Origin: a plasmid
Direction: 5' to 3' (one strand)
Length of the DNA: 64,000 nt
Sequence record: NZ_CP020440.2
Shown here: piece by piece, positions 2,268-34,197 of the stretch
Position numbering within the stretch: position 1 is the first letter of the stretch
Layout of the letters: each line of letters opens with the position of its first letter
Translations under genes and position numbers: made by a program
The notes under the pieces: generated by a model
The model's input: only the letters and a program-made list of their open reading frames with translations
Databases searched by the model: none
Told to the model about the DNA's origin: nothing

Positions 2268-3299
2268 ATGGACCACACGAGCTTTACCGAGATCTGCCTG
2301 CATCAGCTGAAGATGTCGGGCGTGCGCAAGGATGAGCGCCTGATCGTGCTGACGCAGGGCAATGAACGGCTGGCCTATGCCGATGCCTTCATGGCCGCAG
2401 GCCAGCGTCTGGGCGCGAATATGTATCACATGCGCCTGCCGGCGCCGCTGCCGACCGATGGCTGGGCGGTGGGCCAGACCGGCCTTGCCGCCATGCCCGA
2501 TGCGGTCGAGGCGCTGAAGAATTGCGACATGCTGATCGACTGCATCTTTTTGCTGTTCAGCCCCGAACAATTCGCCATTCAGGCCGCCGGCACCCGCATC
2601 CTGACCGCCGTCGAGCCGCCCGAGCTGCTGGCGCGGATGCTGCCCTATCCCGAGCTGCGCGAAAAGGTTCAGATCGCGGCCGATATCCTTGACCGGGCCA
2701 AGGTGATGCGCATCACCTCGGCGCATGGCACCGATGTCACCTATAAGCTGAACACCTATCCGACCGTGCCGGAATATGCCTGCACCGACACGCCCGGCCG
2801 CTGGGACCACTGGCCTTCGGGCTTCGTGTTCACAGGGGGCGACGATGACGGCGTTGACGGCACCATCGTCGTGGCACCGGGCGACATCCTGCTGCCCCAG
2901 AACCTGATGGTGCGCGAACCGATCACCTACACCATCGAGAAGGGCTGGATCACCGACATCCGTGGCGGGCTCGAGGCGGAGATCGTGAAATCCTACATGG
3001 ACAGCTTCAACGACAGGCGCGGCTACGGCATGAGCCATGTGGGCTGGGGCATGAACCCGAACGCGAAATGGCACAACTTCGTGCCCGGCACCTTCGAGGG
3101 CGGCATGGGCATGGAGCCGCGCAGCTTCTACGGCAACGTCATGTTCTCGACCGGCCCGAACAACGAGCTGGGCGGCCCGAACGACACGCATTGCCACCTG
3201 GACATCCCGATGCGCAATTGCTCGTTGTTCCTTGATGACCAGGCGATCGTGATCGACGGCGATATCGTCGTCAAGGACATCCAGCTGGCCCGCGCCTGA
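2268..3299 (+). CDS. 2,5-dihydroxypyridine 5,6-dioxygenase (NicX)-like protein (aminopeptidase-T/M29-like fold)
   Basis: 343 aa, the size of NicX. The N-terminal region resembles the M29/NicX family. The assignment rests mainly on conserved gene context (deformylase upstream, maleamate amidase downstream). Confidence 0.55.
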   Translation: MDHTSFTEICLHQLKMSGVRKDERLIVLTQGNERLAYADAFMAAGQRLGANMYHMRLPAPLPTDGWAVGQTGLAAMPDAVEALKNCDMLIDCIFLLFSPEQFAIQAAGTRILTAVEPPELLARMLPYPELREKVQIAADILDRAKVMRITSAHGTDVTYKLNTYPTVPEYACTDTPGRWDHWPSGFVFTGGDDDGVDGTIVVAPGDILLPQNLMVREPITYTIEKGWITDIRGGLEAEIVKSYMDSFNDRRGYGMSHVGWGMNPNAKWHNFVPGTFEGGMGMEPRSFYGNVMFSTGPNNELGGPNDTHCHLDIPMRNCSLFLDDQAIVIDGDIVVKDIQLARA

Positions 3300-3355
3300 T
3301 CCGGCCGCGGGCGGCCCGGTCGCGGGCCGCCCCCTTTCCCTGCAAGGAACAGAAC

Positions 3356-3976
3356 ATGTCTCAGCAACAGGTCTATGAGGCCGCCGGCTTCGGCGGCACG
3401 GTCGCGCGGGGCACCCGCCCGGCCATCGTCGTGGTGGATTTCACCTATGGCTTCACCGATCCGCAATATCCCACCGCGGCCGACATGTCGGCCGAGATCG
3501 CGGCGACCCGCAGGCTGACCGACCTGGCCCGCGCCAAGGGGTTTCCGGTCATCTATACGGTCATTGCCTATACACCGGGCGAACTTGACAAGACGCCCTG
3601 GCTGAAAAAAGCCACGGGGATGTCGGCCTTTCTGGCGGACAGTCGTCTGGTGCAGATCGACGAGGCGACGGGCAGGCAACCGGGTGACGCGGTCGTGGTC
3701 AAGAAGGGCGCCTCGGCCTTTTTCGGCAGCGCGCTTGGCGGGCTGCTGGTGGGGGCCCGGGCCGATACGGTGGTGGTCTGCGGCACGACCACCTCGGGCT
3801 GCGTGCGCGCCACGGTGGTCGATGCCGTGCAGTCCGGGTTCAACGTCCTGGTGCCGCGCGACTGCTGCGCTGACCGCGCCTCGGGGCCGCACGAGGCGAA
3901 CCTTTACGACATGCAGCAGAAATACGCCGATGTGACGGATGCCGAAGATATCCTTGCTTGGCTGGAGACGCTGTAA
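3356..3976 (+). CDS. isochorismatase-family hydrolase, maleamate amidohydrolase (NicF)-like
   Basis: 206 aa cysteine-hydrolase/isochorismatase fold (VVVDFTYGF ... VVVCGTTTSGCVRATVVDA with the catalytic Cys). Context as for NicX. Confidence 0.7.
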   Translation: MSQQQVYEAAGFGGTVARGTRPAIVVVDFTYGFTDPQYPTAADMSAEIAATRRLTDLARAKGFPVIYTVIAYTPGELDKTPWLKKATGMSAFLADSRLVQIDEATGRQPGDAVVVKKGASAFFGSALGGLLVGARADTVVVCGTTTSGCVRATVVDAVQSGFNVLVPRDCCADRASGPHEANLYDMQQKYADVTDAEDILAWLETL

Positions 3977-4080
3977 GCGGCCCGCTTTCCGGAAGATGGC
4001 CGCCGGCGGGGGAAACCCGCGCCGGTTGTGCCCGCCGCATGATCCTGGCGGCGTACCCCCCTCCGCCGGGAAACGGATGA

Positions 4081-5655
<1,575 letters not shown>

Positions 5656-5681
5656 ACGCCGGTGGCAATCGGGATGAAGAA

Positions 5682-5706
5682 AGGCGGCCCAAGGGCCGCC
5701 TTTTGC
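5682..5706 (+). terminator. rho-independent terminator of gdhA
   Basis: GGCGGCCC-aag-GGCCGCC followed by TTTTGCC, 27 nt after the gdhA stop. Confidence 0.7.
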
Positions 5707-5981
5707 CAAATCGGGACGCGTCATCCTTTCAGCGGCCCCGAAGCTCCATCGTGGATCCCGGCCTCAAGCCGCGGATCTGCCGGGGTTTGAATATCCCCTT
5801 CCGGGCGGAAGAAGGGCAGACCTGTCCGACGATGACGGCAGGAGGAATGGCGGGCAGCTGCTGCGAACGACCGAGGCCGGGGCTGGCCGTCCCGGATGCC
5901 CGCTTCGCTCCGGTGGACAGCGACGGCATCCGCGCCATCCGCTTCCGGCTGGAACCACGGGGCAACGCGGATGCCACCGCG

Positions 5982-6812
5982 CTAGGCCACCTCGGCCGCC
6001 AGTCCGCCGCGCCCGGCCGAGGCCAGCCGGGCCAGCGCCTCGGTCACCTCGACCCGGCGGTAGGTTTCCGTGACCAGCCCCTCGGCCGAGCGCAGGCCCA
6101 CGCGCGTCTGCAGGGCCGCCTGCCGGTCCTTCGGATCGACCTCGGCGTCGCAGGCGACCAGCCAGTTCGCATAATCGTCGTCGTTTTCCTTGATCGGGAT
6201 GCCGCTGCTGTTCACCGCCCCCGGTGCGCGGCGCATCGACACGATCTCGGACACCGGGCGCAGCGCCTGCGTCGGGTTGAACTCGGTCCGCTTGTCGGTG
6301 CCGGCGATCTCGACATCGCCGCCGGCCACCCGCCCCGAGGCGCTGTAGACAAAGGCCGAGGCGATGCGGTCCAGCGCGGCCTCGACCTCTTTCGGGCGAT
6401 GGACCACGTCGCGGGGCGGGCGGTCGGGAACGGCGAGACGGGTGATGCCGCGGTCGTTGATCGCGTCCAGGACCTCGCGGTGGTCGTCGGTGCGCAGGAT
6501 CACCTCGCGTCGGGCCGGCCAGAAGTCATAGGGCGCATGGGCGCCGTGGCTCTTGCCGATATGGAAGGCATAGATTTCCGGATAGACGGCGCGGCTGCTG
6601 CGGCGCGTCGGGCGGGCGTCGTAATAGGCCATCATTGCGCATTGCACCAGATGCGTGGCGCCGACCCCGCCCAGCGGCGCGTCGATGACAAGGCCGAGGC
6701 GGTCGAGCTCGGTCCAGCCGGGAAACAGCGCCTCCATCGTGGCCGGCCGGCCGCCGATGCTGATCTGGAACATGTCGGTGCGAAGCAGCCCGGCGACGTG
6801 CATGGTGGTCAT
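5982..6812 (-). CDS. conserved hypothetical protein (276 aa), divergent from acxR
   Basis: Long ORF with strong GC3 bias on the coding strand and no recognisable motif (motif HIGKSHGAHAPYDFWP). The reading frame is clean. Confidence 0.6.
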   Translation of the reverse strand: MTTMHVAGLLRTDMFQISIGGRPATMEALFPGWTELDRLGLVIDAPLGGVGATHLVQCAMMAYYDARPTRRSSRAVYPEIYAFHIGKSHGAHAPYDFWPARREVILRTDDHREVLDAINDRGITRLAVPDRPPRDVVHRPKEVEAALDRIASAFVYSASGRVAGGDVEIAGTDKRTEFNPTQALRPVSEIVSMRRAPGAVNSSGIPIKENDDDYANWLVACDAEVDPKDRQAALQTRVGLRSAEGLVTETYRRVEVTEALARLASAGRGGLAAEVA

Positions 6813-23999: not shown

Positions 24000-24395
24000 G
24001 CTCGACCTGGTCGCGCAAACCGGGGTCGCGCACCAGCTTGCGCCGCCGCGTCCGTCGCCCGTCCGAATAGCTTTACGCCACGACACACCAGTAGCCGCTG
24101 AGCTTCGGGATGTCGCTGTCGTGGAAATGATTGCGGCGAAGCTCGCGGAAGATCGTCGAGCGGTGCCGGCCGAGCCTGTGCGCCATCTCGTCAGGGCTCA
24201 GCTTCATCTGCCGCCAGCGCTCGATCTTGCGGCGTTCCGAAAGGGAAAGGTGGGAAAACCGAACCTTCATTCCTATGCTCCTTTCATGGCTCAACCCATT
24301 GTTGAGCACAGAAAGTCGCATTTCAGGATAGCACGTATCCCCTCTACAGCAAGAAAATTAATAATTGGATTTATGTAATATATATTTGGCTCTGG
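24000..24395 (-). mobile_element. IS30-family element 5' end (left-end region plus an 82-aa N-terminal HTH fragment of the transposase at 24073-24321)
   Basis: LSLSERRKIERWRQMKLSPDEMAHRLGRHRSTIFRELRRN is the IS30 transposase N-terminal HTH, with a stop after 82 aa. An AT-rich block (24340-24390) lies upstream. Confidence 0.6.
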
Positions 24396-24783
24396 CGACC
24401 AAAGGGGCCGCTGATCGGCCGAACAAAAGGCGGCATGAACACCAAGCTGCATGCTGTCGCCGATGGGCGCCCGACCCGGTTCTTCATGACCGCAGGCCAA
24501 GTCAGCGATTACACCGGCGCGGCGGCCCTGCTGGGTAGCTTGCCCAAAGCGGAATGGTTGCTGGCTGACCGGGGCTACGACGCTGATTGGTTCAGAGATG
24601 CTTTTAAATACAGGGGGTTAAAGCCATGCATCCCGGGCAGGACGTCGCGGGGCGAACCTGTCAAGGACGATAAGCACCGCTACAAACGCCGCAACCGGAT
24701 CGAGATCATGTTCGGCAGGCTGAAGGACTGGCGCAGGGTCGCCACCCGCTACGGCAGATACCCCAAGGTCTTCCTCTCCGCAG
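24396..24783 (+). pseudogene. IS5-family (IS427-like) transposase C-terminal fragment
   Basis: GRLIGRTKGGMNTKLHAVADGRP ... ADRGYDADWFR ... RNRIEIMFGRLKDWRRVATRYGRY is the C-terminal half of an IS5-group DDE transposase. Truncated 5' by the IS30 fragment and 3' by the IS256 end. Confidence 0.7.
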
Positions 24784-26115
24784 GGTCACGTCTGTCAAGC
24801 TGGTGTAAATTCCGTGATAGCCTGAGGGCATGATCAGGCGGCTTTCGTGGTTATGCTGAGAATGGGGTCGATTTCCTCCTTGTCGATCTGAGCGAAGGCC
24901 TCGACCATCATGTAGCGGCTCGAGGTCTGCCATTCGTCGTTGGCTTCGAAGAGCACGGCGCCGATCAGCCGCATGATCGAGGCCTCGATGGGGAGTGAGG
25001 GCATGACTGCCATTGGTTCGAAGGAGTGCCCGAACGCCGACGACGTCGGCGCGGCGCTTCACCTCCTTGTTCAGGCGCTCGATCGGGTTGGTGCTGTGCA
25101 GCTTGGTGCGATGCTGGCGCGGGAAGGACATGCAGGCCAGCACGTCGTGTTCGCTCCTCGCCATTGGGCTCGAACCATGTATGGATGGCTCCCGCGTGGC
25201 AAGAGGCTTGTTATGTTCGACAACTGGTCGGGTGCGGCCATGTATTCGGCGTCTGATCTGCGGTGATCCCGCGCGCCCTGATGAACGTCCGCCTGAGGCC
25301 CGGGTCCCTATCAATGGCACGCGCTTAAGGCGCTCCGGTCCGAACGGGGTGTCCCTTCCTCATGTCCGTCAGTTTGCCATCATCTCACTCTGCCCTCGCC
25401 ACCTCGTTCAGGCCAGCAGCAGCGGCCTGCAATCCTATCTGCTCAAGCCGGTCTCCAGGCTTCGCCCGTTTTCAGCATGGCCCAGATCGCCCGCGCCATG
25501 CGATTGGCCAAAGCGATGGCTGCAACCTTGAGCGGCTTTGTCGCGACCAGGCGGCCCAGCCAATCTGTGCTGGGTTCAGAAAGCCTGCGCGCGGAGATCA
25601 CGCCCATGGCGCCAAGAGAGAGCAGCCGTCGGATATACCGGTTGCCCATCTTGGAAATGGAGCCCGGCCGTTCCTTGCCGCCACTTGAATGGGGCTTGGG
25701 CGTGAGCCCCAGCCAGGCAGGCAGATCACGGGCTGACCGGAAGCTCGACACATTGGGCAACGTTGCCGCCAGAACGCTGGCGGTAATGGGCCCGATGCCG
25801 GGCATTGTCTGGAGCCGACGGGCTGTCTCGTCCACTTCCGCATCGGCTTTGATCTGAGCCGTCATGACATCGATGCGCTGCTTGGTGTCGCGGAACTGGC
25901 CGGCAAGCAGGTCGAGTGGCATCCGTGCCTCTGGCGGCAGACCAGCTGTCTCAGCCTCGGCAATGAGGCGACCCATGTTATGGACGCCTTTCGGAACGAC
26001 AATGCCGAACTCGCCCAGATGTGCCCGGATCGCGTTGGCAAGTTGTGTCAGCTGACGGACCAGAAAATCACGTGCCCGGTGCTGCATCAGCACCGCCTGC
26101 TGCTTCTCGGTCTTC
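24784..26115. repeat. 1.33-kb direct repeat, identical to 43925-45256 (IS256 3' part plus nested IS110 3' part)
   Basis: The six-frame ORFs are residue-identical between the two copies (offset 19141 bp). Divergence begins exactly at 26115/45256 and outside 24784/43925. Confidence 0.85.
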
Positions 26116-26367
26116 CAGCTCTCGGGCGACACGGGCGCCCGAGATGCTGGTATCGGCGATCATCACTGATCACCAGCCTGACCCCGCCGAGGCCTTGGGC
26201 ATGCAATGAGCGCAAGAACTCGGTCCAGAACGTCTCGGCCTCGGACGGGCCGATCCCCAGGCCGATGATCTCCCGGCGCTCCTCGGTGCTCGCGGCCACA
26301 GCAATTATCGCCGCGACCGGCACGATTTGGACCTGTCGCGTATTTATGCCGCGCCAAGTGCCCGTTT
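24784..26367 (-). mobile_element. IS256-family element remnant (copy 1) carrying a 5'-deleted nested IS110-family element; its left side is interrupted at 26367
   Basis: Right terminal IR GGTCACGTCTGTCAAGCTGGTGTAAATT at 24784. IS256 transposase C-terminus (FPRQHRTKLHSTNPIERLNKEVKRR) with a frameshift. IS110 transposase C-terminal 229 aa at 25443-26132. IS256 mid-region (VAAIIAVAASTEERREIIGLGIGPSEAETFWTEFLRSL) at 26087-26323. Deletion junction near 26115-26160. Confidence 0.7.
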
Positions 26368-27897
26368 AGACCCCATGATCGCCGAGTGAGTTGACTGGGT
26401 CTGTGGCCTCTCCCGCGGCATTCTCCGTTCGAGGGTTGCGCCAGATTGGCTGGTGCCGAGCCTCAAGAATGGGGGAGAGACCGCATGGAGCATACCACGT
26501 TTATCGGGCTGGACGTCCACAAGGCGTCGATCTCGGTCGCCGTTGCGCAGGGCATGCGCGGCGGCGAGGTCCGACACCTGGGATCGGTCCCGAACCGTCC
26601 GGATCACATTCGCAAGCTGGTGGAGAAGCTGGCCTCGGCTGGGGCGCAACTGCAGTTCTGTTACGAGGCCGGTCCCTGCGGCTATGGCCTGCACCGCCAG
26701 CTTGTTGCGATGGGGCACGACTGCAGCGTGATCGCGCCCTCGCTGATCCCGTTGAAGGCCGGAGATCGGATAAAGACCGACCGTCGCGACGCGGTGATGC
26801 TGGCCAAGCTGCATCGAGCGGGTGAGCTGACGGCGGTCTGGGTGCCGGATGCGGCACATGAGGCGATGCGCGATCTGGTCCGCGCGCGGGCGACGGCGAT
26901 GCGGGTGGCGGGCAAGGCGCGCCAGCATCTGCAGGGCTTCCTGCTTCGCCACAGCCGGATCTATCCCGGCAAAAAGGGTTGGACCGGGGCTTACCGGCGC
27001 TGGCTTGCGCTGGTCCGCTTCACGCATCCGGCGCAACAGATCGTCCTGCAGGATTACATCGACGCGGTCGCCGATGCCGAGGCGCGGGTCGAGCGGCTGA
27101 CAGAACAGATCGCGGACCTGCTGCCGCACTGGAGCCTTGCGCCGGTTGTGGAGGCCGTCCAAGCGATGCGTGGGGTTGGGTTCATCGTTGCCGTGACGGT
27201 GGTGGCCGAGGTGGGCGACTTCGGGCGTTTCGATACGCCGCGTCAGTTGATGGCCTATTTGGGGCTGACGCCCTCGGAACATTCCAGCGGTGCCAGCGTG
27301 CGGCGGGGCGGGATCACCAAGGCAGGCAGCGGTCTCGCCAGGCGCGCGCTGATCGAGGGGGCCTGGAGCTACCGGATGCAGGCGCGGATCAGCGTGAAGC
27401 TGCTGGCCCGGCTCGAGGCCTTGCCCAAGGTGGTGCGCGACATCGCCTGGAAGGGTCAGCTCCGGATGTGCCAGCGCTACCGGCACCTGATCGCGGTCGG
27501 CAAGGCGAAGGTCGTGGCGGTGACCGCGATCGCGCGCGAGATGCTGGGCTTTGTCTGGGCCATCGCCCGGGCCGTGACTGCGCCACCCGCCAGCCCGGAC
27601 GCCACTGCAGCCTAAAGAAGGGAAGATCGCCCAGATCAGGCCGATGCACAGGGCTGGGGGCGGAACGCGGTGGGGAACCCTCGTGCCCTGTTATGGGCCG
27701 ACACAGTCGATGCCCGATCTTTAGACCGAGGCAGCCCCAGGACGTAACCACGGTCATGCGGTAGCCAACCCGCGCATGAGAGCTTGCTCAACCGTCGTCT
27801 CGGTTCCGCCTCCTGCCCTGCGCATCCACATCACGACGGGCCCGGCAAAGCCGGATTAAACGTCATGGAATAAGGGGTTGACTGCGATCATGAGAAC
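26368..27897 (+). mobile_element. IS110/IS1111-family insertion sequence, copy A (left arm of a 1.5-kb inverted repeat)
   Basis: DEDD-type transposase and about 280 bp of non-coding 3' region. The whole arm is repeated in inverted orientation at 29276-30832. The boundary with the central IS5-like element is not resolved. Confidence 0.7.
26485..27615 (+). CDS. IS110-family (DEDD) transposase, 376 aa
   Basis: N-terminal IGLDVHK motif and the C-terminal IS116/IS110/IS902 domain (MRGVGFIVAVTVVAEVGDFGRF ... LGLTPSEHSSG). GGGGGAGAG RBS. 99.7% identical to the 29555-30724 copy. Confidence 0.85.
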   Translation: MEHTTFIGLDVHKASISVAVAQGMRGGEVRHLGSVPNRPDHIRKLVEKLASAGAQLQFCYEAGPCGYGLHRQLVAMGHDCSVIAPSLIPLKAGDRIKTDRRDAVMLAKLHRAGELTAVWVPDAAHEAMRDLVRARATAMRVAGKARQHLQGFLLRHSRIYPGKKGWTGAYRRWLALVRFTHPAQQIVLQDYIDAVADAEARVERLTEQIADLLPHWSLAPVVEAVQAMRGVGFIVAVTVVAEVGDFGRFDTPRQLMAYLGLTPSEHSSGASVRRGGITKAGSGLARRALIEGAWSYRMQARISVKLLARLEALPKVVRDIAWKGQLRMCQRYRHLIAVGKAKVVAVTAIAREMLGFVWAIARAVTAPPASPDATAA

Positions 27898-29275
27898 AGG
27901 GTGCTGAAGAAGTTGGGCCTTGGCGCCATGTGAAGAACATGATTCAGCCCTCGCAGGCTTTAGCGGGGGGCGGTAATGCGCGGAGCGGACGAGACGAGCG
28001 GATCGCTGTTCAGCCATGTCGATCTGGAGGCGCGTATTCCGGCGCATCCGCTGCGGAAGATCCGGCAGGTGGTCAACGACGCGCTCGCGAGCCTCGACGC
28101 GGAGTTCGAGGCTGTTTACACCGACTTCGGTCGCCCCTCGATCCCGCCGGAACGGCTGATCCGGGCGAGCCTGATCCAGATCCTGTTTTCGGTCCGGTCG
28201 GAGCGGCAGCTGATGGAACAGATGCACTACAACCTGCTGTTCAGGTGGTTTGTCGGCCTTGGGATCGATGACCCCGTGTGGGTCCCCACGGCTTCACCAA
28301 GAATCGGGACCGCCTGTTGACGACCGAGATGTCGCGCAAGGTGATGGCGGCGATCTTGGCTCATTGCGATGTCGCGCCGCTTTTGTCGGACGAGCACTTC
28401 TCGGTTGACGGCACGCTGGTCAAGGCCTGGGCTTCGATGAAGAGCTTCCAGCCCAAGGCCGCCGACACGCCGCCCGACGACGATCCGGGCGGCCTGCCCG
28501 GACTCGACAGCGCCGCCAAAGACCACCCCGAACAGCCCCCTTCCGAAACCGCACCGATGCCCCGCCCCGACCGCCAGTCCCGCAATGCCGAGGTCGACTT
28601 CCGGGGTGAGAAGCGGTCGAATGCGACGCATGTCTCGACCACCGATCCCGACGCGCGGCTTTACAAGAAGTCGCCCGGCACCGGCGCGATGCTGTGCTTC
28701 ATCGGCCATACCCTGATGGAGAACCGGAGCGGCCTGATCGTGCAGGCCGATCTCACTCGGGCCGACGGCCATGCAGAACGCCGGGCGGCGCTGTCGCTGA
28801 TCCACGCCCATTCTCCGGGCTCCACCCGTCAACTGACGCTCGGCGCGGACCGGGGCTACGACGTGGCCGCCTTCGTTCGCGACCTGCGCCAGGCCTGCGT
28901 TACGCCCCATGTCGCGCGAAAATCTCGGCACTCGGCGATCGACGGCCGCACGACCCGACACGCGGGCTATGCCCTGTCCCAGAAGCATCGCAAACGGATC
29001 GAGGAGCCCTTTGGCTGGGGCAAGACCGTCGGCGGCCTCGCCCAGACCGTCTACCGCGGCGTCGAACGGGTCGGGGCCCACTTCATCCTGACGATGACCG
29101 CCAGCAACCTCGCCCGGCTGCCCCGATTGCTAGGGGCAGGACCGAAAGCGGGAAGCAAAATCATCACGCCCGCGGCCCGGACCGCGGGCCAAGGCCACGC
29201 CGACGCCCCAAGATCGGGAAACCCTCCCAGTTCGGCGACTAATTCAGCGGCCTGCTACTAATTCAGCGGCCTGCT
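27898..29275 (+). mobile_element. IS5/IS1182-family insertion sequence (transposase interrupted by a frameshift) at the centre of the palindromic block
   Basis: Imperfect terminal IRs at both inner junctions. A tandem 19-bp duplication (ACTAATTCAGCGGCCTGCT x2) at the right end. Confidence 0.6.
27976..29261 (+). pseudogene. IS5-family transposase (InsH N-terminal DUF772 plus DDE domain) with a frameshift at about 28270
   Basis: N-terminal part 27976-28320 (RIPAHPLRKIRQVV ... LLFRWFVGLGIDDPVW). C-terminal part 28278-29261 in the -1 frame (GFTKNRDRLLT ... DGTLVKAWASMKSF ... ADRGYD). No slippery heptamer at the shift. Confidence 0.7.
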
Positions 29276-30832
29276 CTCATGATCGCAGTCAACCCCTTAT
29301 TCCATGACGTTTAATCCGGCTTTGCCGGGCCCGTCGTGATGTGGATGCGCAGGGCAGGAGGCGGAACCGAGACGACGGTTGAGCAAGCTCTCATGCGCGG
29401 GTTGGCTACCGCATGACCGTGGTTACGTCCTGGGGCTGCCTCGGTCTAAAGATCGGGCATCGACTGTGTCGGCCCATAACAGGGCACGAGGGTTCCCCAC
29501 CGCGTTCCGCCCCCAGCCCTGTGCATCGGCCTGATCTGGGCGATCTTCCCTTCTTTAGGCTGCAGTGGCGTCCGGGCTGGCGGGTGGCGCAGTCACGGCC
29601 CGGGCGATGGCCCAGACAAAGCCCAGCATCTCGCGCGCGATCGCGGTCACCGCCACGACCTTCGCCTTGCCGACCGCGATCAGGTGCCGGTAGCGCTGGC
29701 ACATCCGGAGCTGACCCTTCCAGGCGATGTCGCGCACCACCTTGGGCAAGGCCTCGAGCCGGGCCAGCAGCTTCACGCTGATCCGCGCCTGCATCCGGTA
29801 GCTCCAGGCCCCCTCGATCAGCGCGCGCCTGGCGAGACCGCTGCCTGCCTTGGTGATCCCGCCCCGCCGCACGCTGGCACCGCTGGAATGTTCCGAGGGC
29901 GTCAGCCCCAAATAGGCCATCAACTGACGCGGCGTATCGAAACGCCCGAAGTCGCCCACCTCGGCCACCACCGTCACGGCAACGATGAACCCAACCCCAC
30001 GCATCGCTTGGACGGCCTCCACAACCGGCGCAAGGCTCCAGTGCGGCAGCAGGTCCGCGATCTGTTCTGTCAGCCGCTCGACCCGCGCCTCGGCATCGGC
30101 GACCGCGTCGATGTAATCCTGCAGGACGATCTGTTGCGCCGGATGCGTGAAGCGGACCAGCGCAAGCCAGCGCCGGTAAGCCCCGGTCCAACCCTTTTTG
30201 CCGGGATAGATCCGGCTGTGGCGAAGCAGGAAGCCCTGCAGATGCTGGCGCGCCTTGCCCGCCACCCGCATCGCCGTCGCCCGCGCGCGGACCAGATCGC
30301 GCATCGCCTCATGTGCCGCATCCGGCACCCAGACCGCCGTCAGCTCACCCGCTCGATGCAGCTTGGCCAGCATCACCGCGTCGCGACGGTCGGTCTTTAC
30401 CCGATCTCCGGCCTTCAACGGGATCAGCGAGGGCGCGATCACGCTGCAGTCGTGCCCCATCGCAACAAGCTGGCGGTGCAGGCCATAGCCGCAGGGACCG
30501 GCCTCGTAACAGAACTGCAGTTGCGCCCCAGCCGAGGCCAGCTTCTCCACCAGCTTGCGAATGTGATCCGGACGGTTCGGGACCGATCCCAGGTGTCGGA
30601 CCTCGCCGCCGCGCATGCCCTGCGCAACGGCGACCGAGATCGACGCCTTGTGGACGTCCAGCCCGATAAACGTGGTATGCTCCATGCGGTCTCTCCCCCA
30701 TTCTTGAGGCTCGGCACCAGCCAATCTGGCGCAACCCTCGAACGGAGAATGCCGCGGGAGAGGCCACAGACCCAGTCAACTCACTCGGCGATCATGGGGT
30801 CTAAGCTGACTTTCAGTTCGAAGGCGACGGGC
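29276..30832 (-). mobile_element. IS110/IS1111-family insertion sequence, copy B (right arm of the inverted repeat)
   Basis: Reverse complement of 26368-27897. Outer flank is an IS3 fragment. Confidence 0.7.
29555..30724 (-). CDS. IS110-family (DEDD) transposase, copy B
   Basis: Identical to the 26485-27615 product except for one residue (I/V). Confidence 0.85.
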   Translation of the reverse strand: MAGAEPQEWGRDRMEHTTFIGLDVHKASISVAVAQGMRGGEVRHLGSVPNRPDHIRKLVEKLASAGAQLQFCYEAGPCGYGLHRQLVAMGHDCSVIAPSLIPLKAGDRVKTDRRDAVMLAKLHRAGELTAVWVPDAAHEAMRDLVRARATAMRVAGKARQHLQGFLLRHSRIYPGKKGWTGAYRRWLALVRFTHPAQQIVLQDYIDAVADAEARVERLTEQIADLLPHWSLAPVVEAVQAMRGVGFIVAVTVVAEVGDFGRFDTPRQLMAYLGLTPSEHSSGASVRRGGITKAGSGLARRALIEGAWSYRMQARISVKLLARLEALPKVVRDIAWKGQLRMCQRYRHLIAVGKAKVVAVTAIAREMLGFVWAIARAVTAPPASPDATAA

Positions 30833-31121
30833 TTTTCCAGCCCAATGCTGAGTACCGCCGACGTGGATTGTAGAAGCCGTTGATGTATTCTACGATGGCC
30901 ATCTCGGCTTGCCGCCTGGTTGCTCATGACCGCCGCCAGATCAGCTCGGCCTTGATGGTTTTGAAGAACGTCTCGACGGCCGCATTGTCATAACAATTAC
31001 CTTTGCCGCTCATCGAGCCTTTGAAGCCATGATGGCGCAGGATCTTCTGATGGTCATGCGCGCAGTGTCGGCGACCGCGGTCGCTGTGGAAGATGCAGCC
31101 TTTGGGCGGTGTTCTGCCCAT
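30833..31121 (-). pseudogene. IS3-family transposase C-terminal fragment
   Basis: FHSDRG ... KGNCYDNAAVETFFKTIKAEL ... IVEYINGFYNPRRRHSALGWKSPVAFE: the integrase-core C-terminus of an IS3 OrfB. Truncated on both sides (by ISb copy B on the right side of the IS3). Confidence 0.7.
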
Positions 31122-31324
31122 TTCTGGTTGGGTCGATCAGCCGTGACGTCGCGATCCAGAAGGTCTGGCGCAATGTTGAACGTATGTAGGAGAGGAAATC
31201 GCGGTTGCGCGACGAGGTCCGGAAGCGGGGATCGCCGATGATCCGATAGGCCTCGGCCCGGGCGGTGGCACGCTCGATTCCCGATTCCCCGTGCATGCGG
31301 GGCCGTCCGGTGTTCACCATGGCC

Positions 31325-32100
31325 TCACCACAGTCTGCCCGGCGTCCATGGTAAGCACGTCGACGCAATCCGACGGAATAGTTGACACCATGGCGCCCCC
31401 GGCAGGGCCGGCGACGGCGTCCTACCAGAAAGCGTACCCATCGTGCCAGCCGTAGCCGAACCAATAGCGCTGGCGGCGGAGGCGGATGGGGCCTGACGGG
31501 ACCCAGCGGGCGCGCCGTGATACGCCCCTGCCCCCTGCCCTTCGCGCCAGACGCAGCGGAACCCCAGATACGAGGTCGAGGTGTCCACCGCCCCGGCATG
31601 CCGGGCGTCGGGGCGATAGCGCCGGCAATGGCTGGGCGCGCACAGGTGCGAGCCGCCCTTGATGACCCGGCGCGGGATGCGCACCCGAGGCGGATCGTGC
31701 TTGTCTCGGCCCGGCCACCGCGCGGATTCTGCGGGATGCAGCAGGCCCTGGCGGCATCGACCGGATGGCTCGCGGCGTAAAAGTCCTGGGTCCATTCCCA
31801 GACAGTGCCGATCATGTCGTGGATGCCGTGGCCGTTCGGGGGCAAGGCCGTCACGGGCGAGGCGCGCTCGCGGCCGTCCGGGGCCAGGTTCTCGTTGGGA
31901 AAGGCGCCCGCCGCCCGGCCCCGGTTCGTCGCCCCGGGCAAATTCGGCACAGTCCAGGCCGATTTTGCGGTGCCACTGACGAAGGGTTGCCGAAAGGTCG
32001 TGCGCGGGATCATGGTTCGGTTGTCGCGCAGGGAAATTGGGATCTCCGGCTGACGCAAGGCCGCACGGGCGTCACCGCAGGCGCTTTGCCGCGCCCGCCG
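31325..32100 (-). pseudogene. formylglycine-generating enzyme (FGE/SUMF1) family gene, multiply frameshifted
   Basis: The motifs GIHDMIGTVWEWTQDFY and RVIKGGSHLCAPSHCRRYRPDARHA ... TSTSYLGFRCV lie in different frames of the minus strand. Confidence 0.6.
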
Positions 32101-32491
32101 GAATGATGACGACCTCTCCGTTCTGGATGTTGCGTTGCGCGACAAGGTGGTCGGCGAAATGCCGGACCTCGCCGATGCTGCCTTTCAGGATCGACACCTC
32201 AAGACACTGATCCTGATCCAGATGCACATGCATGGAGGATATGGTCAGGTCGTGGTGGTCGTGATGCGTGGCCGTGACCTTGCGCGCGACCTCGCGCGCC
32301 TGGTGGTCGTAGGTATAGACCACCGCCGCCACGCAGGGGGCATCGGGCGTCGCGTCCGCCCGCAGCCGCGCCAGACCGGCCCGCGTCAGGTCGCGGATCG
32401 CCTCTGATCGGTTGGCATAGCCGCCATCGGCCATCAGCCGATCCAGTTCCGCCATCAGATCGTCGTCGAGGGTGACCGTGACCCGCTGCAT
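32072..32491 (-). CDS. nikR: nickel-responsive transcriptional regulator NikR
   Basis: MQRVTVTLDDDLMAELD ribbon-helix-helix N-terminus, and a C-terminal nickel-binding domain with the His/Cys cluster (HHDHHDL ... HVHLDQDQC). The track ORF is 5'-extended to 32644. Confidence 0.85.
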   Translation of the reverse strand: MQRVTVTLDDDLMAELDRLMADGGYANRSEAIRDLTRAGLARLRADATPDAPCVAAVVYTYDHQAREVARKVTATHHDHHDLTISSMHVHLDQDQCLEVSILKGSIGEVRHFADHLVAQRNIQNGEVVIIPAGAAKRLR

Positions 32492-32612
32492 CGTCCCGCC
32501 TCCTGCCCGGAAGCAGGCCTGTCGATCCTGCACCCGCCGCCCCTTCCCGCCAAACTGCCCGAGCGCCGGCCGGGAGGCAAGTGCTTGACTTGGTGCGCCA
32601 TCCGCGCCGATA

Positions 32613-32640
32613 GTATGCGAAATTTTCATATTCGTCATAC
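32613..32640. promoter_or_regulatory. NikR operator GTATGC-N16-TCATAC in the nikA promoter
   Basis: Matches the E. coli NikR palindrome GTATGA-N16-TCATAC in 11 of 12 half-site positions with the exact spacing. Overlaps a sigma-70-like TTGACT (32585-32590) plus a -10-like TAGTAT. Confidence 0.7.
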
Positions 32641-32658
32641 CCAACCAAGGGCCTCCTC

Positions 32659-34197
32659 ATGACGGTGATCCGAACCGCCCTGGCAATCCTTCTGGCATCG
32701 GCCGCCCTGGCCCATGCCAAGACGCCGGATCTGGTCCTGGCGATCGGCGGCGAGCCCGAGACCGGCTTCGATCCCCTGCTGGGGTGGGGCGGCTATGGCA
32801 ACCCGCTGTTCCAGTCGACCCTGCTGAAGCGTGGGCTGGACCTGTCGACCCAGGCCGACCTGGCCACGGACTGGACATTGTCCCAGGACCGGCTGACCTG
32901 GACGGTGACGATCCGCAGGGACGCAAAATTCTCGGACGGCACGCCCGTGACCGCCAGGGACGTGGCCTTCACCTTCAACACCGCCAAGACCTCGGCCGGG
33001 GCAGTGGACCTGCAGGTGATGACCGGGGCCGAGGCCATCGACGACGATACGGTCAGGATCACGCTGGAAAAGCCTTGGATCACCTTTGTCGAGGCGTTCT
33101 ATACGCTTGGTATCGTGCCGGCGGCATCCTACGGCCCGGACTACGGCCGCAATCCGGTGGGATCGGGCCCGTTCAGAATGGTGTCCTGGGCCGAGGGCGA
33201 ACAGCTGATCGTCGTCCCGAACGAAACCTATTACGGCCCCCCCTCGCCTTTCGGCCAGATCACCTTCCTTTTCACCGGCGAGGATGCCGGGCTGGCGGCG
33301 GCGAAGGCGGGCGTGGCGCAGATGGTCTCGGTCCCCGCGCAACTGGCCGACGCGATCCCGCCGGGGTTCCATGCCGTTCCGGTCAAGACCGTGGACAACC
33401 GGGGCCTGAGCCTGCCGTTCGGCCCGCCGGCCGAGGTTGACGGCCGGAGGGTCGGCAACGCCGTCACTGCGGATCCCGCGATCCGCCGCGCAATCAACCT
33501 TGGCCTTGACCGCGACCTGGTGGTCGAGGTGGCGCTGCATGGCCACGGCACCCCGGCCTTCGGTCCGGCGGACGGCTTGCCCTGGGCGGGCACGGACGAT
33601 TGCACCGCCTTTGACCTGGACGCGGCCAAGGCGGTGCTGGATCAGGCCGGCTGGGTGCCCGGCCCGGATGGCGTCCGCGTCCGGGACGGACTGCGCGCGA
33701 GCTTTCCGATCCACTATCCGTCCTCGGACGCGACCCGGCAGGCCCTGGCGGAAATCGTGGCCGAGCTGCTGCGCCCCCTGGGAATCGAGGCGATGCCGGT
33801 CGGCAGCAGCTGGGACGCCATCCAGCGGGTGATGCACGCCGAGCCGGTTGTGTTCGGATTCGGCAGCCATTCGCCCTATCAGCTTTACAGCCTGTTCGCC
33901 TCGCGCATGGCGGGGGTGAAATGGGCGAACCCGTCCTATTACAGCAACCCCCAGGTCGATGCGCTGTTCGAGAGGGCGCAGGCGGCGGACAGCCTCGAGG
34001 CCTCGTTCCCGCTGTGGTCGCAGGCAGCCGAGGCTTATGGGCTGAAGGGGGACAATGCCTGGGCCTGGCTGGTCAACCTGGATCATGTCTATCTGGTCAG
34101 CGACTGCCTGGACCTGGGCCAGACCCAGATCGAGCCGCATGGCCACGGCTGGCCGATCACCGCCTCGCTTGCGCAGTGGCGCTGGACCTGCGACTAG
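32659..34197 (+). CDS. nikA: nickel ABC transporter periplasmic substrate-binding protein (SBP family 5)
   Basis: Signal peptide followed by a 512-aa family-5 binding protein. Preceded by the NikR operator. Confidence 0.75.
   Translation: MTVIRTALAILLASAALAHAKTPDLVLAIGGEPETGFDPLLGWGGYGNPLFQSTLLKRGLDLSTQADLATDWTLSQDRLTWTVTIRRDAKFSDGTPVTARDVAFTFNTAKTSAGAVDLQVMTGAEAIDDDTVRITLEKPWITFVEAFYTLGIVPAASYGPDYGRNPVGSGPFRMVSWAEGEQLIVVPNETYYGPPSPFGQITFLFTGEDAGLAAAKAGVAQMVSVPAQLADAIPPGFHAVPVKTVDNRGLSLPFGPPAEVDGRRVGNAVTADPAIRRAINLGLDRDLVVEVALHGHGTPAFGPADGLPWAGTDDCTAFDLDAAKAVLDQAGWVPGPDGVRVRDGLRASFPIHYPSSDATRQALAEIVAELLRPLGIEAMPVGSSWDAIQRVMHAEPVVFGFGSHSPYQLYSLFASRMAGVKWANPSYYSNPQVDALFERAQAADSLEASFPLWSQAAEAYGLKGDNAWAWLVNLDHVYLVSDCLDLGQTQIEPHGHGWPITASLAQWRWTCD

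What the first reader, a model, noticed from the sequence alone, without database searches (positions are those of the whole stretch)
26368..30832. Near-perfect 4.5-kb palindrome: two inverted copies of an IS110/IS1111-like element flank a frameshifted IS5/IS1182-like element
The 1.53-kb arms (26368-27897 and 29276-30832) are reverse complements of each other and differ by one codon in the 376-aa DEDD transposase. Each arm ends with about 280 bp of non-coding DNA that abuts one imperfect terminal IR of the central IS5-like element. This is the arrangement reported when IS1111-group elements (IS4321/IS5075) site-specifically target the terminal inverted repeats of another transposon in a fixed orientation. 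Here the outer flanks are unrelated: an IS256 remnant on the left and an IS3 C-terminal fragment on the right. No outer IR remnant of the IS5 element is visible. The block therefore either moved as a unit or seeded flanking rearrangements. IS110-family targeting is RNA-guided (bridge RNA), so the about 250-bp 3' non-coding regions (27616-27860 on plus; 29310-29554 on minus) are candidate bridge-RNA genes. Their target loop should be complementary to the IS5 end.
Basis: partly seen in the sequence, partly recalled or inferred. Interest (0 to 1): 0.7.

Follow-up and report, generated by a model that had tools for sequence, protein, structure and literature searches.

The report
RNA-guided IS caps both IS5 ends
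Two nearly identical copies of a known kind of RNA-guided jumping gene (IS1111 type, like ISPye19 of Paracoccus yeei) have each landed, pointing inward, exactly at the two tips of another jumping gene (IS5 family), giving a 4.4-kb palindrome; the behaviour is documented for this family, and only the target is new.

Summary
The palindrome is real. The arms, 26366-27895 (+) and 30804-29275 (-), are 1530 nt long and differ at one base, which changes I96 to V in a 376-aa DEDD transposase. Each arm is an IS1111-group element resembling ISPye19. The core, 27897-29253, is a frameshifted IS5-family element 83% identical to ISPye38.

In 34 of 42 independent copies of the main clade, from many Alphaproteobacteria, the IS1111 right end abuts the IR tip CAGGYYGCTGAA of such IS5 elements or of their roughly 150-bp MITEs. 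The left flank shows only YTAG. Free IS5 ends read YTAR|CAGG, so the element inserts at the boundary between the IS5 target-site duplication and the IS5 tip. That explains why no outer IR remnant exists.

P. yeei TT13 has the same site empty, with the two flanks contiguous. The block was therefore built in place and did not move as a unit.

The 3' non-coding region encodes a conserved, covarying RNA of about 184 nt (27643-27826). One loop is complementary to TAACAGG. A sister clade carries changed loops that match its own target, the EHW codons of IS256 transposase genes.

Verdict: a new member of a known kind, of modest interest.

The parts
26366..26369 (+). TTAG: left copy of the IS5 4-bp target-site duplication. 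It serves as the left target for the left IS1111-type copy. The last two bases (26368-26369, AG) are the crossover 'core'.
   Evidence: Free IS5 ends read YTAR|CAGG. LE flanks of 45 copies conserve only Y-T before AG. The empty site in TT13 has one TTAG.
26368..27894 (+). Left IS1111-group element (ISPye19-like), 1527 bp if one copy of the 2-nt core is counted. The boundaries are ambiguous by 2 nt because AG(A) is repeated at both ends. With an 8-bp sTIR the terminal extensions are 7 nt (AGACCCC) and 3 nt (GAG).
   Evidence: ISPye19 features in PMC6209633 Table S4. The 7/3-nt extension rule is from PMC11187229.
26374..26382 (+). Left subterminal inverted repeat, CATGATCGC.
   Evidence: Reverse complement of 27884-27892 (sequence). 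Conserved in the LE alignment rows.
26485..27615 (+). DEDD transposase / bridge recombinase gene, 376 aa (Ile96). The motifs LDVHK, YEAG, TDRRD and GLTPSEHSSG are present.
   Evidence: Pfam, NCBIfam. Homology to the solved ISCro4 and IS621 transposases, E 6e-12 and 1e-9.
27643..27826 (+). Predicted bridge RNA / long seekRNA, about 184 nt. It has a long closing stem (27643-27666 with 27803-27826) and two arms.
   Evidence: 46-sequence alignment. RNAalifold consensus. 13 pairs with compensatory changes, with 0 of 500 shuffles reaching the observed values. Single-sequence fold z = -4.6.
27686..27693 (+). Target loop, 5' side: CCCUGUUA. It is complementary to the top strand TAACAGGG, which is the TSD bases TAA plus the IS5 tip CAGG(G).
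   Evidence: The sister clade has AAGCAUUG here and the target CAATGCT.
27719..27725 (+). Target loop, 3' side: UUUAGAC. It is identical to the top strand of left target + core + the first LE bases (T-TTAG-AC), so it is complementary to the bottom strand.
   Evidence: The sister clade has GUUUCCAGA, matching its left target GTTTCCAG|A.
27752..27762 (+). Donor loop, 5' side: GGUCAUGCGGU. It is complementary, with one mismatch and one wobble, to the LE top strand ACCCCATGATC.
   Evidence: Sequence comparison. The segment is invariant in the alignment, so there is no covariation support for it.
27775..27782 (+). Donor loop, 3' side: CAUGAGAG. It is identical to the RE end CATGAG plus the core AG.
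   Evidence: In L067 (61% aa identity) the RE is CATAAGAG and the loop is GAUAAGAG.
27878..27883 (+). TTGACT: an outward-facing -35 box in the right end. In a circle it would pair with CATGAT (26374-26379) as a -10 box, 17 nt away.
   Evidence: TTGAC is invariant in 46 sequences. In-silico circle junction gives TTGACT-17-CATGAT, 9 of 12 matches. No promoter-like site is found in the linear element.
27884..27892 (+). Right subterminal inverted repeat, GCGATCATG.
27895..27896 (+). Core at the right junction of the left copy (AA). The right copy has AG at 29275-29274.
   Evidence: RE-side core across copies: AG 35, AA 13, AT 1.
27897..29253 (+). IS5-family element of 1357 bp, 82.6% identical to ISPye38. 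IRL is 27897-27914 (CAGGGTGCTGAAGAAGTT). IRR is 29236-29253 (reverse complement CAGGCCGCTGAATTAGTC). The transposase is split by one frameshift (ORFs 27976-28320 and 28278-29261).
   Evidence: ISPye38 ends CAGG...CCTG with a 4-bp TTAA duplication.
29254..29272 (+). An extra 19-nt copy of the IRR tip: 17 nt of the IR followed by AG (read on the - strand), lying between the IS5 element and the right IS1111-type copy. Its origin is unexplained.
   Evidence: Direct repeat D14. Sequence. Absent from the 99.7% identical IS5 copy in L081.
29276..30802 (-). Right IS1111-group element, the mirror image of the left copy. Transposase 30685-29555 (Val96). Predicted RNA 29527-29344. sTIRs 30796-30788 and 29286-29278.
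30801..30804 (-). TTAG on the - strand (CTAA on +): right copy of the IS5 target-site duplication and left target of the right copy.

Best explanation
The block is a nested insertion that was built in place.

Step 1. An IS5-family element of the ISPye38 group inserted at a TTAR site, the stop codon of an IS3-family orfB remnant. This made the usual 4-bp duplication.

Step 2. Two copies of an IS1111-group element (ISPye19-like) then inserted independently, one at each end, with the right end toward the IS5 element. They inserted at the composite site YT-AR|CAGG..., which is formed by the IS5 target-site duplication and the IS5 tip.

Targeting is RNA-guided. The 3' non-coding region encodes a bridge RNA / seekRNA of about 184 nt. 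Its first arm has an internal loop whose 5' side pairs with the top strand (TAR-CAGG) and whose 3' side pairs with the bottom strand (YTAG). The two matches overlap at the core, as described for IS1111 seekRNAs. The second arm carries sequences that match the element's own ends.

By analogy with the family, the element excises as a circle whose junction creates a promoter (TTGACT-17-CATGAT).

Shown here: the anatomy, the site specificity, the empty site, RNA conservation and covariation, and guide/target co-variation between clades. Inferred: expression of the RNA, circle formation, and current activity.
For: - Palindrome and gene content.
- Site specificity: 34 of 42 independent main-clade right junctions read AR-CAGGnnGnTGA. 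Information content extends about 19 nt on the RE side but covers only 2 nt (Y, T) on the LE side (raw junctions).
- Free ends and fully uncapped IS5 copies read YTAR|CAGG with perfect 4-bp duplications. These include ISPye38 itself at its published coordinates.
- Empty site: TT13 pTT13-2 joins window 26248-26372 directly to 30810-33378 through a single TTAG.
- Double-capped arrays recur in other genomes: L084 (P. yeei FDAARGOS_252 plasmid 4, with an intact IS5 transposase), L011/L012, L034/L035, L043, L065 (a 159-bp MITE) and L085 (Azospirillum).
- RNA: conserved over 27643-27826. The closing stem has 7 pairs with compensatory changes and the apical hairpin has 4. 0 of 500 shuffles reach the observed values.
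- Guide/target covariation: the main clade has loop CCCUGUUA and target TAACAGG. The sister clade (76-78% aa identity) has loop AAGCAUUG and 3' loop GUUUCCAGA, and inserts at GTTTCC-AR-TGCTC inside IS256 transposase genes at the ...FPAEHW... codons. Within that clade, L048 has loop AAACAUUG and target TGTT.
- The order 'top-strand match 5' of bottom-strand match, overlapping' and the 3' location agree with PMC11187229 and PMC11208160.
- Junction promoter in silico.
Against: - There are no expression or transposition data.
- No Rfam family matches the region.
- The donor-arm helices never vary, so they are uninformative. RNAalifold pairs the two donor guides with each other, so the donor-loop geometry is uncertain.
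- The fifth tip base is usually mismatched with the guide (guide CCCUG, most targets CAGGC).
- 8 of 42 main-clade copies are not next to a full IR motif. Two of these are explained by a second IS inserted in the IR. Four are partial matches and two are unrelated.
- In L023 and L025 the outer 4-mer does not match the free-end duplication at its first base.
- The 19-nt duplicated IR tip at 29254-29272 is not explained by this history.
Confidence: 0.85

Rival explanations
1. The block is a composite mobile unit (IS1111-IS5-IS1111) that transposed into this site as one piece. This possibility was left open for the ISPye46 arrays in P. yeei.
For: Similar arrays recur in several genomes. PMC11578231 could not decide between a composite transposon and preferential insertion for the ISPye46 arrays.
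Against: - The TT13 empty site (TTAG|GCCG) lacks the CAGG half-site that the element's guide requires.
- The block is flanked by an IS5-type 4-bp duplication rather than the 2-nt core only.
- Half-capped intermediates exist with the same IS5 copy (L081, 99.7% identical) and in many other genomes.
- The arrays in other genomes have different, co-diverged IS5 and IS1111 sequences and their own YTAR duplications.
Confidence: 0.05
2. The IS5 terminal repeat is recognised by the transposase protein alone. The conserved 3' region would then be a regulatory or structural element and not a guide.
For: Target conservation extends to about +19, far beyond the 7 nt that pair with the loop. Off-target sites keep similarity to about +8 (L070, L062, L013).
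Against: - The extended conservation is explained by the IS5 element's own IR.
- Loop and target change together between clades at 5 of 7 positions, and again within the sister clade in L048.
- The family mechanism has been shown experimentally for other IS1111 members (PMC11187229).
Confidence: 0.07
3. The palindrome is an assembly artefact, that is a mis-joined or collapsed repeat.
For: Near-identical 1.5-kb inverted repeats are hard to assemble from short reads. No read data are available here.
Against: - The arms differ by one SNP and have different inner junctions: AA|CAGGGT... on one side, AG|CAGGCC... plus the 19-nt extra tip on the other.
- The same architecture is present in complete plasmids of other strains and genera.
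Confidence: 0.03

Closest known systems
ISPye19 (ISfinder; IS110 family, IS1111 subgroup; Paracoccus yeei CCUG 32053; Lasek et al. 2018, PMC6209633 Table S4)
   Same: It has a 376-aa transposase and a 115-nt left end. Its length is 1522-1524 bp, against 1525-1527 bp here. It has a 2-bp 'direct repeat' and 9/9 IRs that are 'not at the ends'. Copies 86-87% identical to the window's element exist in P. yeei plasmids, and copies 99.9% identical exist in strain FDAARGOS_252.
   Different: The ISfinder sequence could not be compared here, so it is unknown whether the window's element is an isoform or a sibling IS. The text I read does not report a target preference for ISPye19.
IS4321 / IS5075 (IS1111 family), which target the 38-bp terminal IRs of Tn21-family transposons (Partridge & Hall 2003, cited in PMC11208160 and PMC11187229)
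   Same: These are IS1111-type elements with subterminal IRs. They insert in one orientation into the terminal inverted repeats of another transposable element, so both ends can be occupied.
   Different: From my own knowledge, those elements insert inside the IR and interrupt it. Here the crossover lies in the last two bases of the host IS's target-site duplication and the IS5 IR stays intact. The host element here is an IS5-family IS and its MITEs, not a Tn3-family transposon.
ISPye46 arrays 'IS110-IS5/IS256-IS110' in P. yeei CCUG 46822 and LM20 (Lasek et al. 2024, PMC11578231)
   Same: They occur in the same species. Two inverted IS1111-type copies bracket an IS5- or IS256-family transposase gene. 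ISPye46 is recorded as 'inserted within the IR of a partial IS'.
   Different: ISPye46 is a different element: 1361 bp, a 342-aa transposase, TG repeats, and a divergent orientation. Those authors found no related arrays outside P. yeei. The ISPye19-like arrays found here occur in at least six taxa.
Bridge RNA of IS621 (PMC11208160) and seekRNAs of ISEc11, ISKpn4 and ISPa11 (PMC11187229)
   Same: A DEDD recombinase is paired with an element-encoded RNA that has loops matching both strands of the target and the element's own ends. In IS1111 members the RNA lies 3' of tnp and the top-strand match precedes the bottom-strand match.
   Different: There is no detectable sequence similarity of the RNA to any curated family. 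The left-target match is very short here (YTAG) because the left side of the target is only the IS5 duplication.
ISPye38 (IS5 family, 1366 bp, 18/18 IR, 4-bp duplication; captured in a trap plasmid; PMC6209633)
   Same: The central element is 82.6% identical over 88% of its length. It has the same tip (CAGG...), IR length and YTAR duplication.
   Different: The window's copy is 1357 bp and frameshifted. It carries an extra 19-nt IR tip at one end.

Membership tests
IS110 family, IS1111 group (arms) | DEDD (RuvC-like) transposase with a C-terminal PF02371 domain and the GL-P----SG motif | tested here: met
   PF01548 at 3.5e-15 and PF02371 at 2.8e-22. NF033542 at 277 bits against a cut-off of 140. 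Aligns to the solved ISCro4 and IS621 transposases and contains GLTPSEHSSG.
IS110 family, IS1111 group (arms) | Subterminal inverted repeats with short asymmetric terminal extensions (7 or 6 nt on the left, 3 nt on the right) | tested here: met
   CATGATCGC (26374-26382) pairs with GCGATCATG (27884-27892). With an 8-bp IR the extensions are AGACCCC (7 nt) and GAG (3 nt). The rule comes from PMC11187229.
IS110 family, IS1111 group (arms) | The long non-coding region lies downstream of tnp | tested here: met
   The left end is 115 nt and the right end is 279 nt.
IS110 family, IS1111 group (arms) | Insertion at one specific sequence in one orientation, with no true target duplication | tested here: met
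   34 of 42 main-clade copies sit at AR|CAGGnnGnTGA, always with the RE toward the IS5 element. Only the 2-nt core is repeated.
Bridge RNA / seekRNA | A conserved structured RNA in the long non-coding end, supported by covariation | tested here: met
   13 pairs show compensatory changes. 98% of cells are paired, against 35-45% when partners are slid. 0 of 500 shuffles reach the observed values.
Bridge RNA / seekRNA | [quoted passage not shown] | tested here: met
   CCCUGUUA is complementary to TAACAGGG, and UUUAGAC matches T-TTAG-AC. Both segments change together with the target in the sister clade.
Bridge RNA / seekRNA | A second loop matching the element's own ends (donor) | tested here: inconclusive
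   GGUCAUGCGGU and CAUGAGAG match the LE and the RE plus core. The arm is invariant in the main alignment, and the two segments are predicted to pair with each other. The only supporting change is in L067.
Bridge RNA / seekRNA | The RNA is expressed, binds the recombinase and is required for transposition | not testable with these tools
   This needs RNA-seq, co-purification and transposition assays.
Bridge RNA / seekRNA | Match to a curated covariance model | tested here: not met
   No Rfam 15 hit at E <= 1 in 24000-33000 apart from a chance DicF match. No hit does not exclude membership, because an RNA class appears in the library only once it has been described and curated.
IS5 family (central element) | DDE transposase of the IS5 type that scores above the family cut-off | tested here: met
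   DUF772 plus DDE_Tnp_1. The intact paralogue scores NF033581 IS5_4 at 267 bits (cut-off 140). IS1182 scores 199 bits, below its cut-off of 270.
IS5 family (central element) | Short terminal IRs and a 4-bp YTAR target-site duplication, with the element occurring on its own | tested here: met
   Three uncapped copies have 18-bp IRs and perfect TTAA or CTAA duplications. ISPye38 was captured experimentally.
Composite transposon (whole block) | The block occurs at different sites as one unit, with the duplication or junctions made by the outer elements | tested here: not met
   The empty site lacks the CAGG half-site. The flanks carry the IS5-type duplication. Half-capped intermediates exist.

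The most novel reading that the evidence does not exclude
This IS1111 lineage may be a specialised parasite of other insertion sequences. Its guide reads a composite site, the IS5 target-site duplication plus the IS5 tip, which exists only after an IS5 insertion. A sister lineage with the same RNA scaffold has been naturally reprogrammed to hit a conserved motif inside IS256 transposase genes. Capping both tips could change the fate of the host IS, for example by blocking or altering its transposition. It could also create long palindromes that drive plasmid rearrangement. In that case the arrays would be a functional interaction between mobile elements and not passive debris.
Probability: 0.25. 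Interest if true: 0.55.

Novelty: new member of a known kind. Interest (0 to 1): 0.3.

Why it matters
The finding gives a clean natural example of RNA-guided (bridge RNA / seekRNA) targeting in the IS1111 group. It comes with an empty site, half-occupied intermediates, and two sister clades whose guide loops and targets changed together.

For the ISPye19-like element it answers the question left open for the P. yeei 'IS110-IS5-IS110' arrays. These arrays arise by preferential insertion at IS ends and are not composite transposons. They are also not confined to P. yeei.

For annotation, it explains a recurrent 4.4-kb palindrome in alphaproteobacterial plasmids. It also fixes the element's ends and its target (YT^AR|CAGG).

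It does not reveal a new mechanism.

Tried and rejected
- Rfam scan of 24000-33000 at E <= 1 gave only a chance DicF hit.
- The single-sequence fold of the RNA gave an interior different from the consensus. I relied on the alignment-based structure instead.
- I considered GGCAGCC (27729-27735) as a second guide, because it is complementary to GGCTGC in the IR. I rejected it because it is invariant in the sister clade, whose target differs.
- I considered 2-bp and 3-bp IS5 duplications to explain the L023 and L025 mismatches. I rejected both because uncapped copies show perfect 4-bp duplications.
- I tried to explain the 19-nt extra IR tip in three ways: nested IS5 insertion at the internal TTAG (this predicts 16-nt spacing, but 19 nt is observed); imprecise IS1111 excision carrying 17 nt of a former target; and slippage plus a point mutation. 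None is convincing.
- I looked for a hybrid promoter from the RE -35 box reading into the IS5 element and found no plausible -10 box.
- The promoter scan of the linear element found nothing.
- Partridge & Hall 2003 (PMC219399) is not held, so its content is cited second-hand and from memory.
- My automatic LE finder failed, so LE flanks were taken.

Full report
**Observation.** The repeat finder reports one inverted repeat of 1548 nt at 26366-27913 / 29257-30804. A base-by-base comparison shows identity over 26366-27895 against 30804-29275, with a single mismatch at 26770 A / 30400 G. That mismatch changes Ile96 to Val96 in a 376-aa ORF (26485-27615 on +, 30685-29555 on -). Further inward the two sides are only as alike as an imperfect IR.

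The arm ORF hits PF01548 and PF02371 and NCBIfam 'IS110 family RNA-guided transposase' at 277 bits against a cut-off of 140. It also aligns with the solved ISCro4 and IS621 transposases.

The core carries DUF772 and DDE_Tnp_1 in two overlapping ORFs. Against an intact 393-aa paralogue the reading frame switches once, near residue 105. The same frameshift is present in a 99.7% identical copy on another replicon, L081. The intact paralogue passes the IS5_4 cut-off (267 bits against 140) but not the IS1182 cut-off (199 against 270).

**Where the window comes from.** The arm is 99.9% identical to two copies on plasmids of Paracoccus yeei FDAARGOS_252, and 74-87% identical to copies in Paracoccus, Leisingera, Sulfitobacter, Salipiger and Azospirillum.

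Lasek et al. 2018 list ISPye19 (IS110 family, IS1111 subgroup). Its features are a 376-aa transposase, a length of 1522-1524 bp, a 2-bp repeat, and 9/9 IRs 'not at the ends'. These match the arm. I could not compare sequences with ISfinder.

The core is 82.6% identical to ISPye38. The published ISPye38 coordinates in pYEE3 run exactly from CAGG to CCTG (1366 bp) with a TTAA duplication. ISPye38 was captured in a trap plasmid, so it moves on its own.

**Site specificity.** A scan of 185,579 species genomes with the transposase gave 80 loci.
- The right end ...CGATCATGAG is followed by AR and then CAGGYYGCTGAARWAGTC in 34 of the 42 independent main-clade junctions (49 junctions in all, of which 7 belong to the sister clade).
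- Information content stays high for about 19 nt on that side.
- On the left side only Y and T before the AG are conserved.
- The conserved sequence is the terminal IR of ISPye38-like elements. It can be either end of the element, or the ends of 148-159-bp MITEs (L019, L054, L076, L065).

Free ends of these elements read YTAR|CAGG. Three fully uncapped copies have perfect 4-bp duplications: TTAA, CTAA and CTAA.

Occupied ends read Y-T-A-G|ACCCC...CATGAG|A-R|CAGG. The IS1111-type element therefore recombines within the last two bases of the IS5 duplication (donor core AG, target core AA or AG) and leaves the IS5 IR intact. This is why no outer IR remnant is visible.

With an 8-bp sTIR the terminal extensions are 7 and 3 nt, which is the IS1111 rule quoted in PMC11187229.

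**History of this block.** P. yeei TT13 plasmid pTT13-2 aligns with window 26248-26372 and then, one base later, with 30810-33378 at 97% identity. At the join it reads CGT-TTAG-GCCGCTTTCAG. The two 'unrelated' flanks are therefore contiguous DNA: the 3' end and stop codon of an IS3-family orfB remnant and what follows it.

The window has TTAG on the left and CTAA on the right, reading on the + strand. This is what a TTAA duplication becomes if the last base is converted to G at each IS1111 left junction. The TT13 site has no CAGG half-site, so the IS1111-type element could not have delivered the block there. An IS5 insertion at YTAR followed by two cappings explains it.

Intermediates exist. 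The same IS5 copy is capped at one end only in L081, and single-capped copies occur in at least eight other loci.

Fully capped arrays occur in:
- P. yeei FDAARGOS_252 plasmid 4, with an intact IS5 transposase;
- a Rhodobacteraceae MAG (L011/L012);
- Falsigemmobacter intermedius (L034/L035);
- an alphaproteobacterial MAG (L043);
- a Paenirhodobacter MAG, around a MITE (L065);
- Azospirillum argentinense (L085).

Each array has its own YTAR flanks.

**The RNA.** Forty-six distinct right ends align with 84% mean identity and are almost invariant from about 27643 to 27826. RNAalifold gives a long closing stem (27643-27666 with 27803-27826) and two arms. Counting pairs gives 98% of cells paired, against 35-45% when partners are slid. 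Thirteen pairs show changes on both sides: 7 in the closing stem and 4 in the apical hairpin of arm 1. None of 500 shuffles reaches the observed values. The helices of arm 2 never vary, so they say nothing either way.

Arm 1 has an internal loop.
- Its 5' side, CCCUGUUA (27686-27693), is the reverse complement of TAACAGGG. That is the duplication's TAA plus the IS5 tip.
- Its 3' side, UUUAGAC (27719-27725), equals the top strand of the left junction T-TTAG-AC.
- The two matches overlap at the core, and the top-strand match comes first. This is what Siddiquee et al. describe for IS1111 seekRNAs. The 3' location agrees with Durrant et al..

Arm 2 contains GGUCAUGCGGU, complementary to the LE sequence ACCCCATGATC with one mismatch. 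It also contains CAUGAGAG, which is the RE end plus the core.

**Covariation between guide and target.** A sister clade (L036-38, L047-51, L049; 76-78% aa identity) keeps the scaffold but has AAGCAUUG and GUUUCCAGA in the two loop positions. Its copies lie at GTTTCC-AR-TGCTC. Joining the flanks and translating gives ...FYDFPAEHWKHLRTTNPIESTFATVRHR..., the conserved motif of IS256-family transposases. Five of the seven paired positions on the 5' side of the loop differ between the clades, and in each case complementarity is kept.

Three further cases point the same way.
- Within the sister clade, L048 has AAACAUUG and the target TGTT, where the others have G and C.
- L036 has UUCCCAGA against the left target TCCCAG.
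- In L067 the RE is CATAAGAG and the donor-loop segment is GAUAAGAG.

There are only a few independent events, but they point directly to RNA-guided recognition.

**Other features.** Joining RE and LE in silico gives TTGACT-17-CATGAT across the junction. The TTGAC is invariant, and the linear element has no promoter-like site. This fits the circle-junction promoter known for the family.

**What remains unexplained.**
- The right junction carries an extra 19 nt: 17 nt of the IR tip followed by AG, then the complete IR (29254-29272). It is absent from the sister copy in L081.
- The fifth tip base usually mismatches the guide.
- In L023 and L025 the outer 4-mer differs from the free-end duplication at its first base.
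- Eight main-clade copies lack a full IR next to the right end. In two of them (L004, L073) a different IS110-family element sits 8 bp inside the same IR. Four have partial matches and two have none.

**Comparison and verdict.** All defining features of an IS1111-group element that I could test are met. The RNA meets the structural and complementarity criteria of a bridge RNA / seekRNA, but expression and function are untested.

Targeting the terminal IRs of another transposable element is known for IS4321 and IS5075. In P. yeei, ISPye46 is recorded as inserted in the IR of an IS5-family element and as forming IS110-IS5/IS256-IS110 arrays whose nature was left open. What is added here is the exact target of the ISPye19-like lineage, evidence that its arrays are built in place, their presence well outside P. 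yeei, and a natural pair of reprogrammed guides.

This is a new member of a known kind. Interest is modest (0.3).

Noticed in passing
window 29235-29272: There is a 19-nt tandem repeat of the IS5 right IR tip. Read on the - strand it is CAGGCCGCTGAATTAGTAG followed by CAGGCCGCTGAATTAGTCG. The outer copy is 17 nt of IR plus AG, so the inner tip again forms a near-perfect unoccupied target (T-AG|CAGG). It is absent from the 99.7% identical IS5 copy in L081. Its origin is unknown.
   Followed up: partly
window 44298-45694 (full copy) and 25157-26115 (partial duplicate): A second, different IS110-family element is present (334-aa transposase at 44584-45588 on the - strand). It is 99% identical to one in TT13 pTT13-2. 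It lies inside an IS256-family transposase gene, next to the ...MSFPRQHRTKLHSTNPIE... region. The left neighbourhood of the palindrome contains a truncated duplicate of this arrangement. It may correspond to the ISPye46-type IS110-IS256 arrays of PMC11578231.
   Followed up: partly
L036-L038, L047-L051, L049 (around positions 2990-4400 of each locus): A sister clade of the same IS1111 lineage (Acetobacteraceae, Marivita, Roseovarius, Sediminimonas, Woeseiaceae) is inserted at the EHW codons of IS256-family transposase genes. Its guide loops are changed to match that target.
   Followed up: yes
L004 4436-5827; L073 about 4700-6150: A different IS110-family element (transposase of 305-354 aa, ends GGTTGCCGCC...GGCGGCAACC) is inserted 8 bp inside the same IS5 IR (CAGGCCGC^TGAAATAGTC). 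That IR is already capped at its tip by the ISPye19-like element. Two unrelated IS110-family lineages therefore use the same IR at two positions.
   Followed up: partly
L019 4412-4560, L054 1267-1415, L076 4186-4333, L065 4411-4569: MITEs of 148-159 bp carry the same IRs as the IS5 element and are capped on one end, or on both ends in L065, by the IS1111-type element. PMC11578231 describes a 159-bp MITEPye1, but with IS1182-like IRs. The relationship was not checked.
   Followed up: no
L084 4020-4040: In the FDAARGOS_252 plasmid 4 array one right junction reads CATGAG-AG-AA-CAGG. Both a donor-type core and a target-type core are present, which looks like a 2-nt duplication at the crossover.
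   Followed up: no
window 28280-28320; L081 about 7920: The same frameshift in the IS5 transposase occurs in two copies on different replicons. The defective copy was therefore duplicated, or mobilised in trans, after the mutation.
   Followed up: partly
window 30805-31121 and L083 4006-4100: The IS5 element landed on the TAA stop codon (CTAA on the coding strand) of an IS3-family orfB remnant. Downstream lie nikR and an ABC-transporter operon (32072 onward), as in TT13.
   Followed up: partly
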